Positions 65 through 64,000 of a DNA stretch of 64,000 bases are shown piece by piece. Below the pieces are notes generated by a model. The model was not told the origin of the DNA. It made no database searches and saw nothing but the letters and a program-made list of their open reading frames with translations. The stretch is from a virus (lineage: Duplodnaviria; Heunggongvirae; Uroviricota; Caudoviricetes). Position numbers and translations under genes: made by a program. The stretch covers positions 31,417 to 95,416 of the IMG/VR virus record IMGVR_UViG_2757320620_000001. One strand, given 5' to 3'. Position 1 is the first letter of the stretch. Each line of letters starts with the position of its first letter.

Positions 65-1606
65 TTGAACGCAACCGCAGCCCTTTCGCTTATTCGCGAA
101 ATCGCTAATTCGCCCGGCCGCCTGGATAAACAGGCCGGCCTCGATAAGCTGCTCGCCAGCGATCTCGGCAAGTTCATCCTCAAGTGGACCTACGATCCGT
201 TCATCACCTTTGGAATCACGGTGAAGAAGATGCCGGCTCACAATCCTCTGCCTGATGTGACGATCAATAATCCCTCGGTCGACGCCCATCTGATCGATCT
301 GTCCACACGCGCGCTGTCGGGCAACGCCGCAAAGGAAGCCACTGATTATCTCCTTTCGGTTCTTGACGAGCCTTCGCGCGAAATCCTCTTCCTGATCCTC
401 AACAAGGATCTGAAGGCCGGCATTGCCAACACGACGATCGAATCCGTGCTGCCGGGCTTCCTGCCGTCGTTCGGCGTCATGCGCGCTCACCCATACGAAG
501 ACAGCCGCGTCACGAAATTCCCGGTTCCGATCGAGCCGAAGCTCGACGGTTACCGCTGCACCTTCATCGCGAAGGAAGGGAAGGGCGCCTTTTTCACCAG
601 GTCGGGCAAAGCCATTCCGGCGTTCCAGGAGCTGGCCGAGCCGCTGCTTGAGGCAGCGAAGCACATTCGGCAAGAGGCGCGCAACGGCGACGTCGATGAT
701 CACTACCGCGACCTGGCGCTGATGCTGTTCGATGGCAACAACGTCGAGCCGACCTTTGTTCTCGACGGTGAAGCGCTCTACGGGCTCTTTGCGAACATGG
801 GCGCGATCAAGCGAAAGAACGGCCAGCTCTACGATGGTGAGCTGCACGCCTTCGATCTGCTGCCGCTCTCCGGCTTCCTCGGCAACACGCCCTATAAGGT
901 TCCCTACGAGAAGCGTCGCGAGCTGTTGTCGACCTTCGTCTCGGAGCTGCGCAGCGTGACCAATGCGCCGGTCTACCAGACGCCGACCTACGAGGCGAAC
1001 AGTCACGAGGAAATCCAGGAGATCTACGAGCGCCTGGTCAATCAGACGATCGCCAATTACCTCGCTCGCGGCGACAAGGCTCGCGAAGCCGAGCTGGCGA
1101 AGAACACGATCGACAAGGCAACCGGCAAGCTGAAGTGCCTCGAAGGCGCGATGGTGAAGAGCTACGAGGGGCCATACGAAAAGAAAAAGTCCTACACCTG
1201 GTTGAAAATCAAGCCCGAGGACACGATCGACCTCTTCGTCGTCGGCTTCTACAACGGCAAGGAAAACGACGAGAACGAGAACCGCCTGGGCGGCGTCATT
1301 GTCGACCATAAGGGCGTCGAGGTGCGCATCGGCGGTGGCTGGTCGAGCGATGACCGCGATCAGCTCTGGGAAGATTGGCAGCACGACGCCGCTCTGCTCG
1401 GAATCGACCCGAAGGTCGGCTACAAGAAAGGTCACTCGCTCGCGCCGGCCGACGTCCACGAGAAAGGCTACAAGCTCCTCGGTCGCATGCTCGAAATTGA
1501 GTTCAACGAGGTGACGCCCGACGGTTCGCTGCGCCACCCGCGCGCTGTGCGCTTCCGCGACGACAAGGCCGGCGAAGCGCTTGCCGAACTGAAGGCGGCC
1601 GCGTGA
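65..1606 (+). CDS. ATP-dependent DNA ligase
   Basis: TTG start 6 nt after an AAGGAGA RBS. Nucleotidyltransferase motif I K-x-D-G-x-R is present as EPKLDGYRCTF. Length of 513 aa fits phage/bacterial ATP ligases. Confidence 0.85.
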   Translation: MNATAALSLIREIANSPGRLDKQAGLDKLLASDLGKFILKWTYDPFITFGITVKKMPAHNPLPDVTINNPSVDAHLIDLSTRALSGNAAKEATDYLLSVLDEPSREILFLILNKDLKAGIANTTIESVLPGFLPSFGVMRAHPYEDSRVTKFPVPIEPKLDGYRCTFIAKEGKGAFFTRSGKAIPAFQELAEPLLEAAKHIRQEARNGDVDDHYRDLALMLFDGNNVEPTFVLDGEALYGLFANMGAIKRKNGQLYDGELHAFDLLPLSGFLGNTPYKVPYEKRRELLSTFVSELRSVTNAPVYQTPTYEANSHEEIQEIYERLVNQTIANYLARGDKAREAELAKNTIDKATGKLKCLEGAMVKSYEGPYEKKKSYTWLKIKPEDTIDLFVVGFYNGKENDENENRLGGVIVDHKGVEVRIGGGWSSDDRDQLWEDWQHDAALLGIDPKVGYKKGHSLAPADVHEKGYKLLGRMLEIEFNEVTPDGSLRHPRAVRFRDDKAGEALAELKAAA

Positions 1607-1866: not shown

Positions 1867-1896
1867 GGGCAGCTCTCGCGGGCTGCCCTTTTTTTT
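1867..1896 (+). terminator. rho-independent terminator (GGGCAGC-loop-GCTGCCC + T8)
   Basis: 7 bp GC stem (1867-1873 / 1882-1888) followed by TTTTTTTT (1889-1896), placed after the ligase operon and abutting the end of repC on the other strand. Confidence 0.7.
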
Positions 1897-2998
1897 ATTG
1901 CCGTCGCCTGAGCTTCTGGATCTCCTCATCAAGGTTGACCTGGCCGGCACGGATCAACCGGCACATCGCCCGGAAGTAACCGCCGAAATTCTTGATCTGC
2001 TCGGCGCCGGCAGCCGGCCGCGCCTGCATCTGGATAACCCACACAAGGGTCGCAGCAGCCGGCACCGGGCCGATCTCGCGCCTGGCCTCCTCCCAGGCCG
2101 ACGCAGACACGCCGAACGCGCCCCGCATTCGCCCGGCAGCCGCGACAAGCTCGAGGTCGTGCCGGATCTCACCCATGAACTCCATCGCATCAGGGCAAGC
2201 CATCTTCAGGTCACGCAGATCCGTCTGCCGCGCCGGCGCCTCCTCCACATTTTCATGGCTGTTGTTACAAGACTGGTCAGGGGCATATTTGTTGCTGTCT
2301 TTGTGACGGCAGTTATTGCCGGCAGAGGCGGTATAATATCTGGATTCTGCCTCCTGCCGGAGTGCTTGCCACTGCCCGCGGAAAGGGTCGGCCGATCCCG
2401 CGCTCGACCTACGCGGCGTGACGCGCACGAGCTCCAGGGCGCGCGCCGTCAGATCTTCGATGTCGACGCTCGGGTAAACCTCTGCAAGCGTTCTGAGAGC
2501 TTCCTGGGCCGAACGCCGGTGAATGGTCAGCTCGTCGAAGGCAACGCTGCGCTCGCGCTCCATTTCCTTCAGCGCCTCGAGCCTGGCGGCAAACTCCGGC
2601 CGGCGCGCAAGGAGAGGGGAGAGGTCGAAGCCGAAGGCCCGGATGATCTGCCCGGCCGGCGAGCGCTGCGCAAACCGTTTGCCGTTCGGCGAATCCTTGG
2701 AGACGATGACGCCCTCTTCAATCAGCCGGGCGATCGCAAACCGAATGGACCGCTCCGGAATGCCGGTGCGCTCGCCGATGAACTCGTTCGACGGCCAGAC
2801 AAGGATTCGACCCTCGACCGGCTCGCCATTATAGACGCCGCAAAGCTGGTCGAGCACGAAGCGCGCCGACGCCGGCAGCCGAAGGACTCGAGCTGCCATC
2901 CTGGCTGTGTCGAAGAGGTCTTGCTTTTCAAGGCTATATGGGTCTTGGAGGGCCGGTGCTGGCCGCAGACTGCGCCACCCCGATGACTGCGCTGACAT
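1895..2998 (-). CDS. repC: RepC-like plasmid replication initiator (repABC-type RepC family)
   Basis: 367 aa minus-strand ORF. The N-terminal winged-helix region ...WPSNEFIGERTGIPERSIRFAIARLIEEGVIVSKDSPNGKRF... matches the conserved core of alpha-proteobacterial RepC as I recall it. The overlapping + strand ORF 1898..2986 is an antisense artefact. Confidence 0.6.
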   Translation of the reverse strand: MSAQSSGWRSLRPAPALQDPYSLEKQDLFDTARMAARVLRLPASARFVLDQLCGVYNGEPVEGRILVWPSNEFIGERTGIPERSIRFAIARLIEEGVIVSKDSPNGKRFAQRSPAGQIIRAFGFDLSPLLARRPEFAARLEALKEMERERSVAFDELTIHRRSAQEALRTLAEVYPSVDIEDLTARALELVRVTPRRSSAGSADPFRGQWQALRQEAESRYYTASAGNNCRHKDSNKYAPDQSCNNSHENVEEAPARQTDLRDLKMACPDAMEFMGEIRHDLELVAAAGRMRGAFGVSASAWEEARREIGPVPAAATLVWVIQMQARPAAGAEQIKNFGGYFRAMCRLIRAGQVNLDEEIQKLRRRQ

Positions 2999-3053
2999 TG
3001 ATTTCCCTTGCTTTTCAAGGGCAAAGCTTCGCCAGACACTTCGAAAAGAAATG

Positions 3054-3168
3054 TTGACAAATCAGCGGTGATTCGGGATAACCAAGGTGTGAAGCGAGGC
3101 GATCCAAAGTCGCTGAGTTAATTTCAAAGGCTCTGGGATTGCCGTCCTGGAGCCTTTTGCTTTGCCGA
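3054..3168 (+). ncRNA. candidate counter-transcribed (antisense) RNA across the repC leader: promoter-like TTGACA-N17-GATAAC plus a terminator hairpin
   Basis: TTGACA at 3054-3059, a GATAAC -10-like hexamer 17 bp downstream, and the hairpin GGCTC...GAGCC (3129-3133 / 3150-3154) followed by TTTTGCTTTG. All of this is antisense to the intergenic leader between the RHH gene and repC, the same architecture as the ctRNA of repABC replicons. Confidence 0.3.
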
Positions 3169-3170
3169 GT

Positions 3171-3377
3171 TTAGTTTCCTTTGCTCAATTCGAATTCCTT
3201 GATCGCTCGCGCAATCAGATCCGACCGGTTTTTGAACTGGCCCGCCGACATCATGTCGCCGAGTTTCGTCTGTAATTCCTGATCAAGCCAGACGGTGATC
3301 TGGCTTTCGCCGGCAGCCTCGCGTCGTTCCCGATACCTGGCCGCGGCACGCGCGTTAGCATTTCCTTCAGCGTTCAT
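3171..3377 (-). CDS. ribbon-helix-helix (CopG/Arc/MetJ-like) DNA-binding protein
   Basis: 68 aa. The pattern ITVWLDQELQTKLGDMM...NRSDLIARAIKEF is a typical beta-strand-helix-helix signature. It lies immediately upstream of repC and in the same orientation, so an operon is likely. Confidence 0.5.
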   Translation of the reverse strand: MNAEGNANARAAARYRERREAAGESQITVWLDQELQTKLGDMMSAGQFKNRSDLIARAIKEFELSKGN

Positions 3378-3776
3378 GGCTTAGAGACTCAGTTGACCGT
3401 GTCGATTACCAGTGATGCCACGATTCGACAGATGGTAAAACCCCAGTGATTTTCTCGCGCTTTGGTTACACAAAATTAACCTGCGCTCGCAAAAGTCGCA
3501 TAAGGTGGCTTATGGAACTTGCTGTCAACTCCCCAGATTTCACCTATTGAAAATTTTCTTTTCGCACCGTTTGCCCTCGAATCCTTGGTTTCGGGTGCGG
3601 CAAAATGGAATTGACTGCATTTTCTGAATCAATCGGTATTGACTTACAGGTTGAAACTTTGCCAAAAGAAATCACTGCAGCCCAACACCGATGTGCTATT
3701 TACTACAGCAGAAAACAAGAAAACGCTGTTAGTGACAAGTAAAACAGAGGTCTAGGAAGAAGGGTTATAAATTAAA
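3378..3776. promoter_or_regulatory. AT-rich divergent control region between the minus-strand RHH-repC unit and the + strand gene block
   Basis: About 400 bp with no convincing ORF and GC clearly below the window average. It contains TTGACT/TCAAT inverted elements (3611-3650) and the TTGACTTACAGG box also seen at 19146 and 38587. Confidence 0.4.
3626..3650. promoter_or_regulatory. motif variant AATCAA-TCGGTA-TTGACTTACAGG
   Basis: Inverted TCAAT/ATTGA halves with a longer spacer, in the divergent control region. Confidence 0.3.
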
Positions 3777-4178
3777 ATGTCCACTACTTATGTTCGTCCC
3801 TACGCTAACACGAAGGTTGCGCGTTTTCTCGACAAGCACATTGACCAGGTGGTCAACCGATCCCACCGCGAAATCGCTCAGGCGGCCGGCTGGACCCAGT
3901 CGAACATGGTCACGATGATCAAGAAGGGCGACGCCAAGTTGCCGCTCGATCGTGTTGCCGCGCTCGCCCGTGCGATTGACGTGGATCCGCTCTTTCTCTT
4001 CCGGATGGCCCTCGAGCAGTTCATGCCAGAGGATGCCGAAACCGCGCGGATGCTCGATTTCATCTGCACCGAAAACGAAGTCGAAATCCTCGGCGTGATC
4101 CGCGAGGCTTCCGGCAACAGCGATCCGAAGATCAACGATCGGCAGCGTGCTGCCGTTACCGAGGCCTTCGCGAAATAA
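3777..4178 (+). CDS. putative HTH (XRE/Cro-like) DNA-binding protein
   Basis: 133 aa. The segment HREIAQAAGWTQSNMVTMIKKGDAKLP looks like helix-turn-helix. It is the first gene of the + strand block, divergent from the RHH-repC unit. Confidence 0.45.
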   Translation: MSTTYVRPYANTKVARFLDKHIDQVVNRSHREIAQAAGWTQSNMVTMIKKGDAKLPLDRVAALARAIDVDPLFLFRMALEQFMPEDAETARMLDFICTENEVEILGVIREASGNSDPKINDRQRAAVTEAFAK

Positions 4179-29291: not shown

Positions 29292-29366
29292 GAGCTGGTG
29301 CCGGAATTGGTCACGGGACGGATTGCAAATCCGTTCATGCGGGTTCGAGTCCCGTCTAGCTCTCCA
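29292..29366 (+). tRNA. tRNA-Cys (anticodon GCA), CCA encoded
   Basis: Hand-folded cloverleaf: acceptor GAGCTGG/CTAGCTC (two G-U pairs), 3 bp D stem, anticodon stem ACGGA/TCCGT with loop TTGCAAA, 4 nt variable loop, T arm GCGGG-TTCGAGT-CCCGT, discriminator T and a 3' CCA. Confidence 0.8.
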
Positions 29367-63380: not shown

Positions 63381-63623
63381 GTGGAACAGGCCATGATCAC
63401 CGCACCCAAGCAGCTCGCACCCTACGCCGATCGCGACCTCGACTGCCAGGCCGCCTTAGAGAGCACCTTCAACCAGGTGCTGCTGCTCGCCGAGCAATAC
63501 GGCTGGAGCCGGTCCGAGACCGCCCAGGCACTCCAGGAGCTCGCCTTCAACCGCCTCGCCCAAGAGGAAGAGAACCGGCTAACCACGCTCACCATCGAGC
63601 AGCTGAGCTTCGCCCGGCATTGA
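63381..63623 (+). CDS. hypothetical protein (80 aa)
   Basis: GGAACAGGCC RBS. Confidence 0.35.
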   Translation: MEQAMITAPKQLAPYADRDLDCQAALESTFNQVLLLAEQYGWSRSETAQALQELAFNRLAQEEENRLTTLTIEQLSFARH

Positions 63624-63824
63624 CAACCCCGGTCCTGATGTTGACAGGCAGCCCATTCTGTCAACACAGCCACCCCAAAACTCCTCGCAGACCTACTGTC
63701 CATGTTGACAGCATTCCCACCCATTTTGTCCAATGACCATCTCAACAAGGCTTTGATGTTGACGTAAGTTAACCCTATGTTGACAGCCAAGCCCAATTTC
63801 AGCCTTTTCTCCAAGCCGTCAACA
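63619..63824. repeat. iteron-like cluster: four direct and two inverted copies of ATGTTGAC(A/G)
   Basis: Direct copies at 63637, 63701, 63755 and 63776. Inverted copies GTCAACA at 63659-63665 and GTCAACAT at 63817-63824. A partial TTGACAAC sits at 63619. No ORF overlaps. Confidence 0.55.
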
Positions 63825-64000
63825 TATCTCCCCAAATCAGCAGCAACCTGAAAACTCTCATAGCAGCGCACAGAATCGATCCATCAGCTCAAGAGCAGCG
63901 ACAGAGCAGACAACACGACAAAACGCGTCACAGCGAAAGCTCGACAGCTACAGACAGCACACCAACGCTATAGAGCAGAACGCAGACCACGCAGCGCTTA

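What the first reader, a model, noticed from the sequence alone, without database searches (positions are those of the whole stretch)
3054..3168. Candidate counter-transcribed antisense RNA (ctRNA) across the repC leader
The + strand between the RHH gene stop (3171) and the repC start (2998) carries a -35-like TTGACA (3054-3059), a weak -10-like GATAAC 17 bp downstream, and about 75 nt further a terminator-type hairpin GGCTC-N16-GAGCC followed by TTTTGCTTTG (3129-3168). All of this is antisense to the repC mRNA leader.

This is the arrangement of the incompatibility ctRNA that controls repC in repABC plasmids: a small antisense RNA whose pairing aborts or blocks repC expression. The correspondence in position and orientation with the RepC-like ORF strengthens both calls.
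Basis: inference. Interest (0 to 1): 0.6.

Follow-up and report, generated by a model that had tools for sequence, protein, structure and literature searches.

The report
Antisense copy-control RNA upstream of phage repC
The stretch very probably encodes a small antisense RNA that holds down production of the replication initiator RepC in a Rhizobium phage that can also live as a plasmid; this is a well-known type of plasmid copy-number control, not annotated here and missed by the standard RNA-family model.

Summary
The window is Rhizobium phage RHEph10, a phage-plasmid. The stem is really 10-11 bp.

The motifs alone are not beyond chance. Comparison makes the case:
- The -35 box is invariant and the -10 region nearly so in 9 related phages and plasmids. 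The same layout recurs upstream of RepCs only about 40% identical.
- Promoter and terminator are better conserved than the flanking genes.
- Ten base pairs show compensatory changes (0 of 500 shuffles).
- In 21 lineages the terminator stem has 40 G·U pairs against 1 A·C, and it is always more stable on the strand antisense to repC.

So a roughly 77-nt plus-strand RNA with two stem-loops is predicted, antisense to the leader of an RHH-repC operon.

Rfam ctRNA_p42d and S-element do not match. A model built here does find the repB-repC spacer of true Microvirga repABC operons.

How it represses repC is inferred. Refolding of the leader to hide the ribosome-binding site was inconclusive in modelling.

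This is a new member of a known kind, of moderate to low interest.

The parts
3054..3059 (+). -35 box TTGACA of the predicted ctRNA promoter
   Evidence: Sequence. Invariant in 9 of 9 relatives. TTGAC(A) recurs in the equivalent position before distant repC genes and in canonical repABC loci.
3070..3074 (.). GATTC, a GANTC (CcrM methylation) site in the promoter spacer
   Evidence: The window has only 76 GANTC sites against about 386 in shuffles, yet 9 of them lie in 2343-3630. GANTC motifs in repE/ctRNA promoters are a described hallmark (PMC11514494). The site is present in most homologues.
3077..3082 (+). -10-like box GATAAC, 17 nt after the -35 box
   Evidence: GGGATAAC is nearly invariant in the phage group. 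The equivalents are GATTCT in canonical repABC loci and CATAA/GATAAG in Microvirga.
3087..3163 (+). Predicted ctRNA, about 77 nt; both ends are inferred, not mapped
   Evidence: The start is placed by analogy at the conserved GGTG 4-6 nt after the -10 box. The end is placed in the U-tail. The + strand folds to -34.1 kcal/mol (z -4.2) and its complement to -20.4 (z -1.1). The model built from relatives scores 78.9 bits here on + and 28.8 on - (the window was in the training set).
3098..3114 (+). Stem-loop 1 (GGCGAU / CCAAA / GUCGCU), candidate recognition loop
   Evidence: 4 of 5 consensus pairs show compensatory changes. This part of the RNA is the least conserved segment, 28-51% identity in distant relatives against 71-97% for promoter and terminator in most of them.
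3126..3157 (+). Stem-loop 2, an intrinsic-terminator hairpin (core 3129-3154)
   Evidence: -20.7 kcal/mol on + (z -4.1) against -15.0 on -. Six pairs carry compensatory changes. 40 G·U against 1 A·C, and 21 of 21 lineages are more stable on the ctRNA strand.
3155..3166 (+). Terminator tail TTTTGCTTTGCC
   Evidence: CTTTTGCTTTGCC is conserved from Rhizobium phages to Microvirga, Faunimonas and Chelativorans.
2999..3170 (-). repC mRNA leader (RHH-repC spacer), the target of the ctRNA
   Evidence: It is fully complementary to the ctRNA over about 3087-3163.
3159..3166 (-). 5' strand (GGCAAAGC) of a predicted long-range leader helix; it lies in the segment complementary to the ctRNA tail
   Evidence: The minimum-energy fold of the leader pairs it with 3020-3027. 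The same duplex is the best one in nearly all lineages, with compensatory changes in Ancylobacter L012 and pRLb1 L010 and one disruption in L022. Support is moderate.
3020..3027 (-). 3' strand (GCUUUGCC) of the long-range helix; overlaps the SD hairpin by 2 nt
3005..3021 (-). Hairpin CCCUUG-AAAAG-CAAGGG whose 3' arm holds the repC Shine-Dalgarno sequence (AAGGGA), 5 nt before the AUG
   Evidence: Equivalent hairpins with changed arms occur elsewhere: CCCUC/GAGGG in Microvirga, UCCCG/CGGGA in Ancylobacter, CCUC/GAGG in P. qamdonense (sequences). It corresponds in position to the 3' part of the Rfam S-element.
1895..2998 (-). repC (367 aa), replication initiator
   Evidence: Pfam RP-C and RP-C_C. 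Homologues are annotated with the long start. GenBank RHEph10 annotates a shorter form starting at window 2899.
3171..3377 (-). 68-aa ribbon-helix-helix (CopG-like) gene, co-oriented with and upstream of repC
   Evidence: There is no Pfam hit for this copy. It is 45% identical (E 1e-15) to the Ancylobacter homologue, which passes Pfam RHH_1. Homologues are annotated CopG/RHH. Alignment A3.
3495..3528 (-). Candidate promoter/operator of the RHH-repC operon: TTGACA-N17-CCTTAT overlapping the palindrome CATAAG-N6-CTTATG
   Evidence: The GTTCCATAAG-N6-CTTATGC block is conserved in all phage-group relatives. Function is inferred only.

Best explanation
The + strand of the RHH-repC spacer carries a small gene for a counter-transcribed RNA (ctRNA).

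A host sigma-70-type promoter (TTGACA-N17-GATAAC, with a CcrM GANTC site in the spacer) starts transcription near 3087. An intrinsic terminator (hairpin 3129-3154 plus U-tail) ends it near 3163. The product is a roughly 77-nt RNA with two stem-loops, fully complementary to the leader of the repC message. That message is probably made as an RHH-repC operon transcript.

Pairing of the ctRNA with the leader lowers RepC synthesis. This sets the copy number of the plasmid form of the phage and its incompatibility with related replicons.

Shown here, by comparison only:
- the promoter and terminator are conserved;
- the RNA structure covaries;
- selection acts on the antisense strand;
- the layout equals that of experimentally studied repABC ctRNA loci.

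Inferred:
- That the RNA is made, and that it represses repC.
- The route of repression. The leading idea is that ctRNA binding takes away the upstream partner (GGCAAAGC, 3166-3159) of a long-range leader helix. This frees GCUUUGCC (3027-3020) so that the adjacent hairpin fully sequesters the Shine-Dalgarno sequence.
- Transcription attenuation or cleavage of the duplex are equally possible.
- The variable stem-loop 1 is the likely specificity (incompatibility) determinant.
For: Identity and context:
- The window is phage RHEph10. Relatives exist as phages and as 115-120 kb plasmids (PMC4447125).
- repC is a true RepC.

Promoter:
- The -35 box is invariant and the -10 region nearly so in 9 relatives.
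- -35-like and -10-like boxes 98-125 nt before a conserved CTTTTGCTTTGCC tail recur in Ancylobacter, Chelativorans, Faunimonas and Microvirga loci, whose RepC is 38-62% identical.
- Promoter (81-100% identity) and terminator (71-100%) are better conserved than repC (66-93%) or the RHH gene (41-87%) in all but the most distant relative. The RNA's 5' part is variable.

Structure:
- RNAalifold finds two hairpins.
- 10 of 19 pairs have double changes against 3.5 in shuffles (0 of 500). 95.8% of cells are paired against 30-58% when the partners are slid.

Strand:
- 40 G·U against 1 A·C in the terminator stems of 21 lineages, and 21 of 21 are more stable on the antisense strand.
- The window RNA has z -4.2 on + and -1.1 on -.

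Link to known ctRNAs:
- Canonical repABC loci L033 and L034, where Rfam calls ctRNA_p42d and the S-element, have the same order: start codon, SD hairpin, TCTTGACA-N17-GATTCT, hairpin, CCTTTTTCTTTTG.
- Model R1, built without any Microvirga sequence, hits the antisense strand of the spacer upstream of repC in 11 Microvirga loci (E 5e-7 to 4.5e-3). In the loci with a repB gene upstream this is the repB-repC spacer. The upstream gene was confirmed as RepB by Pfam for L016 and L018.
- GANTC sites in repE promoters are described (PMC11514494).
- A ctRNA upstream of repC in replicons without repAB is described (Izquierdo 2005, as cited in PMC10194956).
Against: - There are no transcript data. The start and end of the RNA are inferred.
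- Rfam RF00489 and RF00490 do not match the window even at E<=10. R1 reaches the Rfam-positive loci only at E 0.41 and 9.1, although at the right place and strand.
- The -10 box lacks the canonical final T, and the consensus scanner did not call the promoter.
- The refolding mechanism is not supported for this phage by thermodynamic modelling. SD accessibility is 0.28 free against 0.25 with the ctRNA site blocked. It drops clearly in only some relatives: L008 0.47 to 0.05, L012 0.31 to 0.00.
- The SD hairpin is not followed by a U-run, so attenuation as described for p42d is not evident.
- The sequences are phylogenetically related, so the shuffle statistics overstate independence.
Confidence: 0.8

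Rival explanations
1. The hairpin is only a minus-strand element, a terminator or attenuator between the RHH gene and repC. No functional plus-strand RNA is made.
For: The hairpin is nearly palindromic and flanked by AAA on one side and TTTT on the other. On the minus strand it still folds (-15.0 kcal/mol, z -2.0) and is followed by UUUG. It lies 17 nt after the RHH stop codon.
Against: - Every wobble pair but one is G·U on the + strand, which is a C·A mismatch on the - strand: 40 against 1.
- All 21 lineages fold better on +.
- The long conserved T-rich tail is on + only. The minus strand has just 3-4 U.
- This reading does not explain the invariant -35 box at a fixed distance upstream on the + strand.
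Confidence: 0.07
2. The conserved blocks are DNA operators or leader-RNA elements (S-element-like structure, binding sites for RHH, RepC, GcrA or CcrM) rather than a promoter. The TTGACA is conserved for that reason.
For: - The promoter spacer is more conserved than spacers usually are. It contains a palindrome (AATCA-N4-TGATT) and a GANTC site.
- The complement of the -35 box is the first 8 nt of the Rfam S-element model.
- RHH proteins bind such sites.
Against: - In the Rfam S-element consensus, UGUCAAGA is unpaired. RNA structure therefore does not explain its conservation.
- Homologous boxes in p42d, pTi and A. tumefaciens Ch2 were shown to be active antisense promoters (PMC11514494; PMC3155836).
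- A + strand terminator at a fixed distance downstream has no role without a + strand promoter.
- Operator and promoter functions are not mutually exclusive.
Confidence: 0.08
3. The promoter-like and terminator-like motifs coincide by chance.
For: TTGACA alone occurs 14 times in the window against about 20 expected. The -10 box is weak.
Against: Conservation, covariation and strand asymmetry hold across lineages whose RepC proteins are only about 40% identical.
Confidence: 0.01

Closest known systems
ctRNA of repABC replicons (p42d ctRNA, pTi RepE, pSymA/B IncA; Rfam RF00489) with the S-element (RF00490)
   Same: - The RNA is encoded just upstream of repC on the opposite strand.
- It has a TTGACA-type promoter about 55 nt from the repC start codon, a terminator hairpin as the main structure with many G·U pairs, and a U-rich tail of the CTTTT(G/T)CTTT(T)G type.
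- The promoter carries a GANTC site.
- The SD sequence sits in the 3' arm of a leader hairpin.
- The leader segment complementary to the ctRNA tail can pair next to that hairpin.
- The model built here also finds the repB-repC spacer of Microvirga repABC operons.
   Different: - There is no match to RF00489 or RF00490.
- The predicted length is about 77 nt with an extra 5' stem-loop, against 55-59 nt as described (PMC10194956).
- The upstream gene is a 68-aa RHH protein, not repB.
- The host replicon is a 115-kb siphophage genome.
- The SD hairpin has no U-run, so the intrinsic-terminator mode described for p42d is not apparent.
Antisense RNA of 'repC family' replicons (pRmeGR4a; Izquierdo et al. 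2005, cited in PMC10194956)
   Same: [quoted passage not shown] An antisense RNA upstream of repC acts as negative regulator and incompatibility determinant. This is the organisation seen here.
   Different: The pRmeGR4a sequence was not compared here. Whether that replicon has the RHH gene is unknown to me. The present element sits in a phage-plasmid.
pMV158 dual control: CopG (RHH repressor) plus antisense RNA II on the copG-repB operon
   Same: A small RHH gene lies immediately upstream of, and co-oriented with, the initiator gene. An antisense RNA is encoded between them and targets the initiator's translation-initiation region (PMC4485353 abstract). The logic is the same: transcriptional plus antisense control.
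   Different: The initiators are unrelated (RepC theta-type against RepB rolling-circle), as are the RNA and the hosts. This is analogy, not membership.

Membership tests
repABC/repC-family ctRNA (inc-alpha, RepE; Rfam RF00489) | Gene lies in the spacer immediately upstream of repC, on the strand opposite to repC | tested here: met
   RepC is confirmed by Pfam. Promoter and terminator are both on + while repC is on -.
repABC/repC-family ctRNA (inc-alpha, RepE; Rfam RF00489) | Conserved sigma-70-type promoter reading away from repC | tested here: met
   The -35 box is invariant and the -10 region nearly so in 9 relatives. The same boxes occur in distant loci and in Rfam-positive controls. Promoter activity itself was not tested.
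repABC/repC-family ctRNA (inc-alpha, RepE; Rfam RF00489) | Rho-independent terminator stem-loop on the antisense strand as the main structural element | tested here: met
   covariation, 40 G·U against 1 A·C, and a U-tail on + only.
repABC/repC-family ctRNA (inc-alpha, RepE; Rfam RF00489) | Scores at or above the gathering threshold of covariance model RF00489 | tested here: not met
   No hit at gathering or at E<=10 on 2900-3800. Controls L033 and L034 score 59.9 and 47.5 bits. True repABC Microvirga loci are also missed, so the model does not cover the whole kind.
repABC/repC-family ctRNA (inc-alpha, RepE; Rfam RF00489) | Length of 55-59 nt (as described, PMC10194956); I recall a single stem-loop, which was not checked here | tested here: not met
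   The prediction is about 77 nt with two stem-loops. The ends are inferred, so this is a prediction, not a measurement.
repABC/repC-family ctRNA (inc-alpha, RepE; Rfam RF00489) | GANTC methylation motif(s) in the ctRNA promoter | tested here: met
   GATTC at 3070-3074. The feature is described in PMC11514494.
repABC/repC-family ctRNA (inc-alpha, RepE; Rfam RF00489) | RNA is made, represses repC and causes incompatibility in trans | not testable with these tools
   Needs Northern blot or RNA-seq, reporter fusions and incompatibility assays.
S-element (Rfam RF00490) | Match to the covariance model between the ctRNA -35 complement and the repC AUG | tested here: not met
   No hit at E<=10. Controls hit at 64.6 and 50 bits.
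S-element (Rfam RF00490) | Leader hairpin whose 3' arm contains the repC Shine-Dalgarno sequence just before the AUG | tested here: met
   CCCUUG-AAAAG-CAAGGG at 3005-3021. The arms covary among lineages (sequences).
S-element (Rfam RF00490) | ctRNA binding switches the leader into the inhibitory fold | tested here: inconclusive
   Constraint folding gives an SD unpaired probability of 0.28 against 0.25 for the window. It drops clearly in only some relatives.
repC-family replicon (pRmeGR4a type) | repC not preceded by repA and repB | tested here: met
   The upstream gene is a 68-aa RHH. B1VFA and V1VFA-S are reported to carry parA and parB (PMC12509600), but their positions were not located here.
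pMV158-type CopG + antisense RNA control | RHH repressor gene and initiator gene in one operon, with an antisense RNA against the initiator leader | tested here: inconclusive
   The gene order and the RHH fold are supported. Co-transcription and repression by the RHH protein were not tested.
pMV158-type CopG + antisense RNA control | Initiator of the rolling-circle RepB family | tested here: not met
   The initiator is RepC. The resemblance is functional only.

The most novel reading that the evidence does not exclude
RHH-ctRNA-repC is a distinct and widespread replication-control cassette of Hyphomicrobiales. It occurs in phage-plasmids of the RHEph10, X66/B1VFA and pLM21S1 groups, in large Rhizobium plasmids, and in Ancylobacter, Faunimonas, Chelativorans and some Microvirga.
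- A CopG-like repressor has replaced RepA/RepB as the transcriptional arm of control.
- The ctRNA, a two-hairpin subfamily not covered by Rfam, also serves the phage as an immunity-like determinant. A resident prophage-plasmid would block RepC synthesis of an incoming relative.
- The fast-evolving stem-loop 1 would define compatibility groups among co-circulating rhizobiophages.
Probability: 0.25. Interest if true: 0.55.

Novelty: new member of a known kind. Interest (0 to 1): 0.35.

Why it matters
- It adds an unannotated regulatory RNA gene to a group of rhizobial phage-plasmids (RHEph10, Y2_11, N1_15, X66, B1VFA, V1VFA-S, pLM21S1, pRlX6). Their plasmid-type replication has so far been inferred only from protein genes.
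- It shows that these phages carry the antisense control of the plasmid replicon along with the initiator. This bears on copy number in the carrier state and on compatibility with the host's repABC plasmids; I recall that R. etli CFN42 has six.
- The current Rfam ctRNA model misses a sizeable branch of these RNAs, including some in true repABC operons. The alignment made here could seed a broader model.
- The kind of regulation itself is textbook for alphaproteobacterial plasmids.

Tried and rejected
- Rfam at gathering on the whole window found only a tRNA. At E<=10 on 2900-3800 there was nothing relevant: a 17-bit CC2171 hit that merely aligns the terminator hairpin, and a weak CopA-like hit elsewhere, at 3432-3513 on the minus strand, 16.6 bits against a gathering score of 60.
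- The consensus promoter/terminator scan did not list either element. This follows from its rules, not from real absence.
- The search for related loci with the single RepC protein found nothing in genome or viral contigs. The alignment query worked.
- tblastn of the 68-aa RHH against plasmids gave no match at 1e-3.
- I tried to fetch the p42d repABC region as a reference by guessing coordinates and got the wrong region. Aquibium and Methylocystis repABC loci were used instead.
- The key mechanism paper (PMC2897686) is not held. The mechanism is cited second-hand from PMC3155836.
- The MAFFT alignment of the terminators put the 5' arms out of register between groups. Stems were therefore registered from their base in a script.
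- Modelling of SD accessibility with the ctRNA site blocked was inconclusive.
- The 14-nt repeat CTTGCTTTTCAAGG was considered as a conserved operator. It was rejected as a general feature because only the RHEph10 subgroup has it.
- Model R1 against the Rfam-positive loci gave only non-significant hits, although at the correct site.

Full report
**What the window is**

The 2-kb region around the finding is 100% identical to Rhizobium phage RHEph10 (JX483881; record coordinate = window + 31416).
- Relatives at 90%, 84% and about 70% identity are the phages Y2_11, N1_15, X66, B1VFA and V1VFA-S. Others are 115-120-kb plasmids: pRlX6, pLM21S1 and P. qamdonense p5.
- The literature treats this group as phage-plasmids with a RepC-type replicon (PMC4447125; PMC12509600). 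None of the papers I could read mentions an antisense RNA.
- GenBank annotates no RNA feature here.

**Genes around the finding**

- The ORF at 1895-2998 (-) is a true RepC: Pfam RP-C 7e-39 and RP-C_C 8e-16.
- The Pfam match begins at residue 23 of the long form, and homologues are annotated with the long start. GenBank's shorter RHEph10 start (window 2899) is therefore probably wrong.
- The 68-aa ORF at 3171-3377 (-) has no Pfam hit itself. It is 45% identical (E 1e-15) to an Ancylobacter homologue that passes Pfam RHH_1, and other homologues are annotated CopG/RHH.
- repC and the RHH gene are the only minus-strand genes in the 50 kb of annotated plus-strand phage genes examined.

**The observation**

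Three corrections apply.
- The stem is 10-11 bp with G·U pairs.
- The hairpin begins 47 nt after the -10 box.
- There is a further stem-loop at 3098-3114.

On their own the motifs are not beyond chance. TTGACA occurs 14 times against about 20 expected. The consensus scanner called neither element, for reasons that follow from its rules.

**Comparative evidence**

*Promoter and spacing.*
- In an alignment of nine relatives, GTTGACA is invariant and GGGATAAC nearly so.
- A scan of one genome per species with a RepC alignment gave 21 further loci.
- Upstream of repC, on the antisense strand, Ancylobacter, Chelativorans, Faunimonas and many Microvirga loci show the same order: start codon, C-rich/G-rich hairpin, GGGCAAAGC, CTTGAC(A)-N17-(G/C)ATAA, a variable part, a G+C-rich hairpin, then CTTTTGCTTTGCC.
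- The distance from the -35 box to the tail is 98-125 nt.

*Conservation by segment.* Against five of the six relatives compared, promoter (81-100% identity) and terminator (71-100%) are better conserved than repC (66-93%) and the RHH gene (41-87%). The 5' part of the RNA is the least conserved, 28-51% in distant relatives. This pattern is usual for antisense control RNAs whose recognition region sets specificity.

*Structure.*
- RNAalifold predicts two hairpins.
- On that structure, 95.8% of cells pair, against 30-58% when the partners are slid.
- Ten of 19 pairs have changes on both sides, against 3.5 in shuffles (0 of 500).

- Across 21 lineages, including two canonical repABC loci, the terminator stem holds 40 G·U pairs. 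These would be C·A mismatches in the repC mRNA. Only 1 A·C pair was found.
- All 21 hairpins are more stable on the antisense strand, mean -18.6 against -14.1 kcal/mol.
- For the window, the + strand RNA folds to -34.1 kcal/mol (z -4.2) and its complement to -20.4 (z -1.1).
- The long T-rich tail is on + only.
- No + strand gene lies upstream that would need this terminator.

**Relation to known ctRNAs**

- Rfam finds nothing here at gathering or at E<=10, and nothing in the 20 related loci.
- As positive controls, two canonical repABC loci (Aquibium L033, Methylocystis L034) give ctRNA_p42d at 59.9 and 47.5 bits and the S-element at 64.6 and 50 bits. L034's ctRNA score is just under the 50-bit gathering threshold.
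- Their sequence has the same layout as the window. The -35 box sits about 55 nt from the start codon, GATTCT lies 17 nt downstream, and then come GGTG, a G·U-rich hairpin and CCTTTTTCTTTTG.
- A covariance model built from the phage group plus three close loci (R1) hits all 11 Microvirga loci where it should, upstream of repC and antisense (E 5e-7 to 4.5e-3). Where a reverse-strand hit was reported, it scored lower.
- Nine of those Microvirga loci have a roughly 340-aa ORF immediately upstream. Pfam confirmed RepB and ParB_N domains for the two tested, L016 and L018. These are true repABC operons that the Rfam model misses.
- Ancylobacter, Faunimonas, Chelativorans and two Microvirga loci have the RHH gene instead.
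- R1 reaches the Rfam-positive loci only at E 0.41 and 9.1, though at the right site and strand.
- The window's element is therefore best filed as a ctRNA of the repABC/repC kind, in a branch outside RF00489.
- The GATTC in the promoter spacer (3070-3074) fits the described excess of CcrM GANTC motifs in repE promoters (PMC11514494). The window as a whole is depleted in GANTC, yet 9 of its 76 sites fall within 2343-3630.

**Mechanism (inferred)**

For p42d, the free leader is reported to form a large stem-loop that leaves the SD sequence open. ctRNA binding is reported to let an inhibitory element form (PMC3155836).

In the window:
- The minimum-energy leader fold pairs GGCAAAGC (3166-3159, inside the segment complementary to the ctRNA tail) with GCUUUGCC (3027-3020).
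- That helix abuts, and overlaps by 2 nt, the hairpin CCCUUG-AAAAG-CAAGGG, which holds the SD sequence 5 nt before the AUG.
- The same long-range duplex is the best one in nearly all lineages. Compensatory changes occur in Ancylobacter (GCUUUGU:ACAAAGC) and pRLb1 (GCGUU:AACGC), and one disruption in M. vignae.
- The SD hairpin arms covary among lineages.
- Blocking the ctRNA target in silico lowers SD accessibility clearly in some relatives but not in RHEph10 itself: 0.28 against 0.25.
- The SD hairpin has no U-run.

I therefore commit to negative control of RepC synthesis by pairing with the leader. Translational sequestration is the leading route, at roughly 40%. Attenuation or duplex cleavage remain open. 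Because the upstream strand of the long-range helix lies only 5 nt after the RHH stop codon, the repC message most likely starts upstream of it, as an RHH-repC operon transcript.

The overall logic, an RHH repressor plus an antisense RNA acting on the initiator gene, parallels CopG and RNA II of pMV158 without any homology.

**Verdict**

It is a new, unannotated member of a well-known kind. Two modest twists are the RHH partner in place of repAB and the extra 5' hairpin in a branch missed by Rfam. Interest is moderate to low.

Noticed in passing
window 1-64000; cluster at 2343-3630: GANTC (CcrM) sites are strongly depleted in the window, 76 against about 386 in shuffles. Yet 9 of them fall in the 1.3 kb covering the 5' half of repC and both flanking spacers, as described for repABC modules.
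   Followed up: partly
window 2920-2933 and 3007-3020: An exact 14-nt direct repeat, CTTGCTTTTCAAGG, itself a palindrome. One copy forms the SD hairpin of the repC leader and the other lies inside repC codons 22-27. It is present only in the RHEph10/N1_15 subgroup (one mismatch in Y2_11). Function unknown.
   Followed up: partly
window 3495-3528 (- strand) and about 3400-3430: Two conserved blocks lie upstream of the RHH gene. One is TTGACA-N17-CCTTAT overlapping the palindrome CATAAG-N6-CTTATG, conserved in all phage-group relatives. The other is a GAATCG...GCATCACTGG block with a GANTC site, also seen in Ancylobacter, Chelativorans and Faunimonas. They are candidate operon promoter and operators.
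   Followed up: partly
window 63620-63826: At least seven copies of (A)TGTTGAC(A/G), in both orientations, lie within about 210 bp of a 510-nt unannotated gap between gp140 and gp141. This looks like an iteron, operator or centromere-type array. The ctRNA -35 region also reads ATGTTGACA (3051-3059).
   Followed up: no
window 1895-2998 (GenBank CDS = window 1895-2899): The GenBank repC of RHEph10 (and of V1VFA-S) is annotated with a start 33 codons downstream of the one used for homologues. The Pfam RP-C match and the conserved SD sequence support the longer form.
   Followed up: partly
L016-L022, L024, L026 (Microvirga repABC loci), about 1245-1416 minus strand: True repB-repC spacers carry a ctRNA-like element that Rfam RF00489 and RF00490 do not detect even at E<=1. 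The model built here does find it.
   Followed up: partly
window 1867-1888 (+): A strong + strand terminator (GGGCAGC-TCTC-GCGGGCTGCCC followed by T8) sits between gp038 and the 3' end of repC. It would stop plus-strand phage transcription from running antisense into repC.
   Followed up: no
window 29292-29363 (+): A tRNA gene (Rfam RF00005, 56 bits).
   Followed up: no
L010 and L011 (Rhizobium plasmids pRLb1 and pSM51_Rh08): Large Rhizobium plasmids of 260-320 kb carry a stand-alone RHH-ctRNA-repC cassette about 75% identical to the phage one over its spacer. Its terminator tail is degenerate (CCTTCAGCGTTTT) and the promoter spacer is 1 nt shorter, so it may be decaying or differently tuned.
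   Followed up: no
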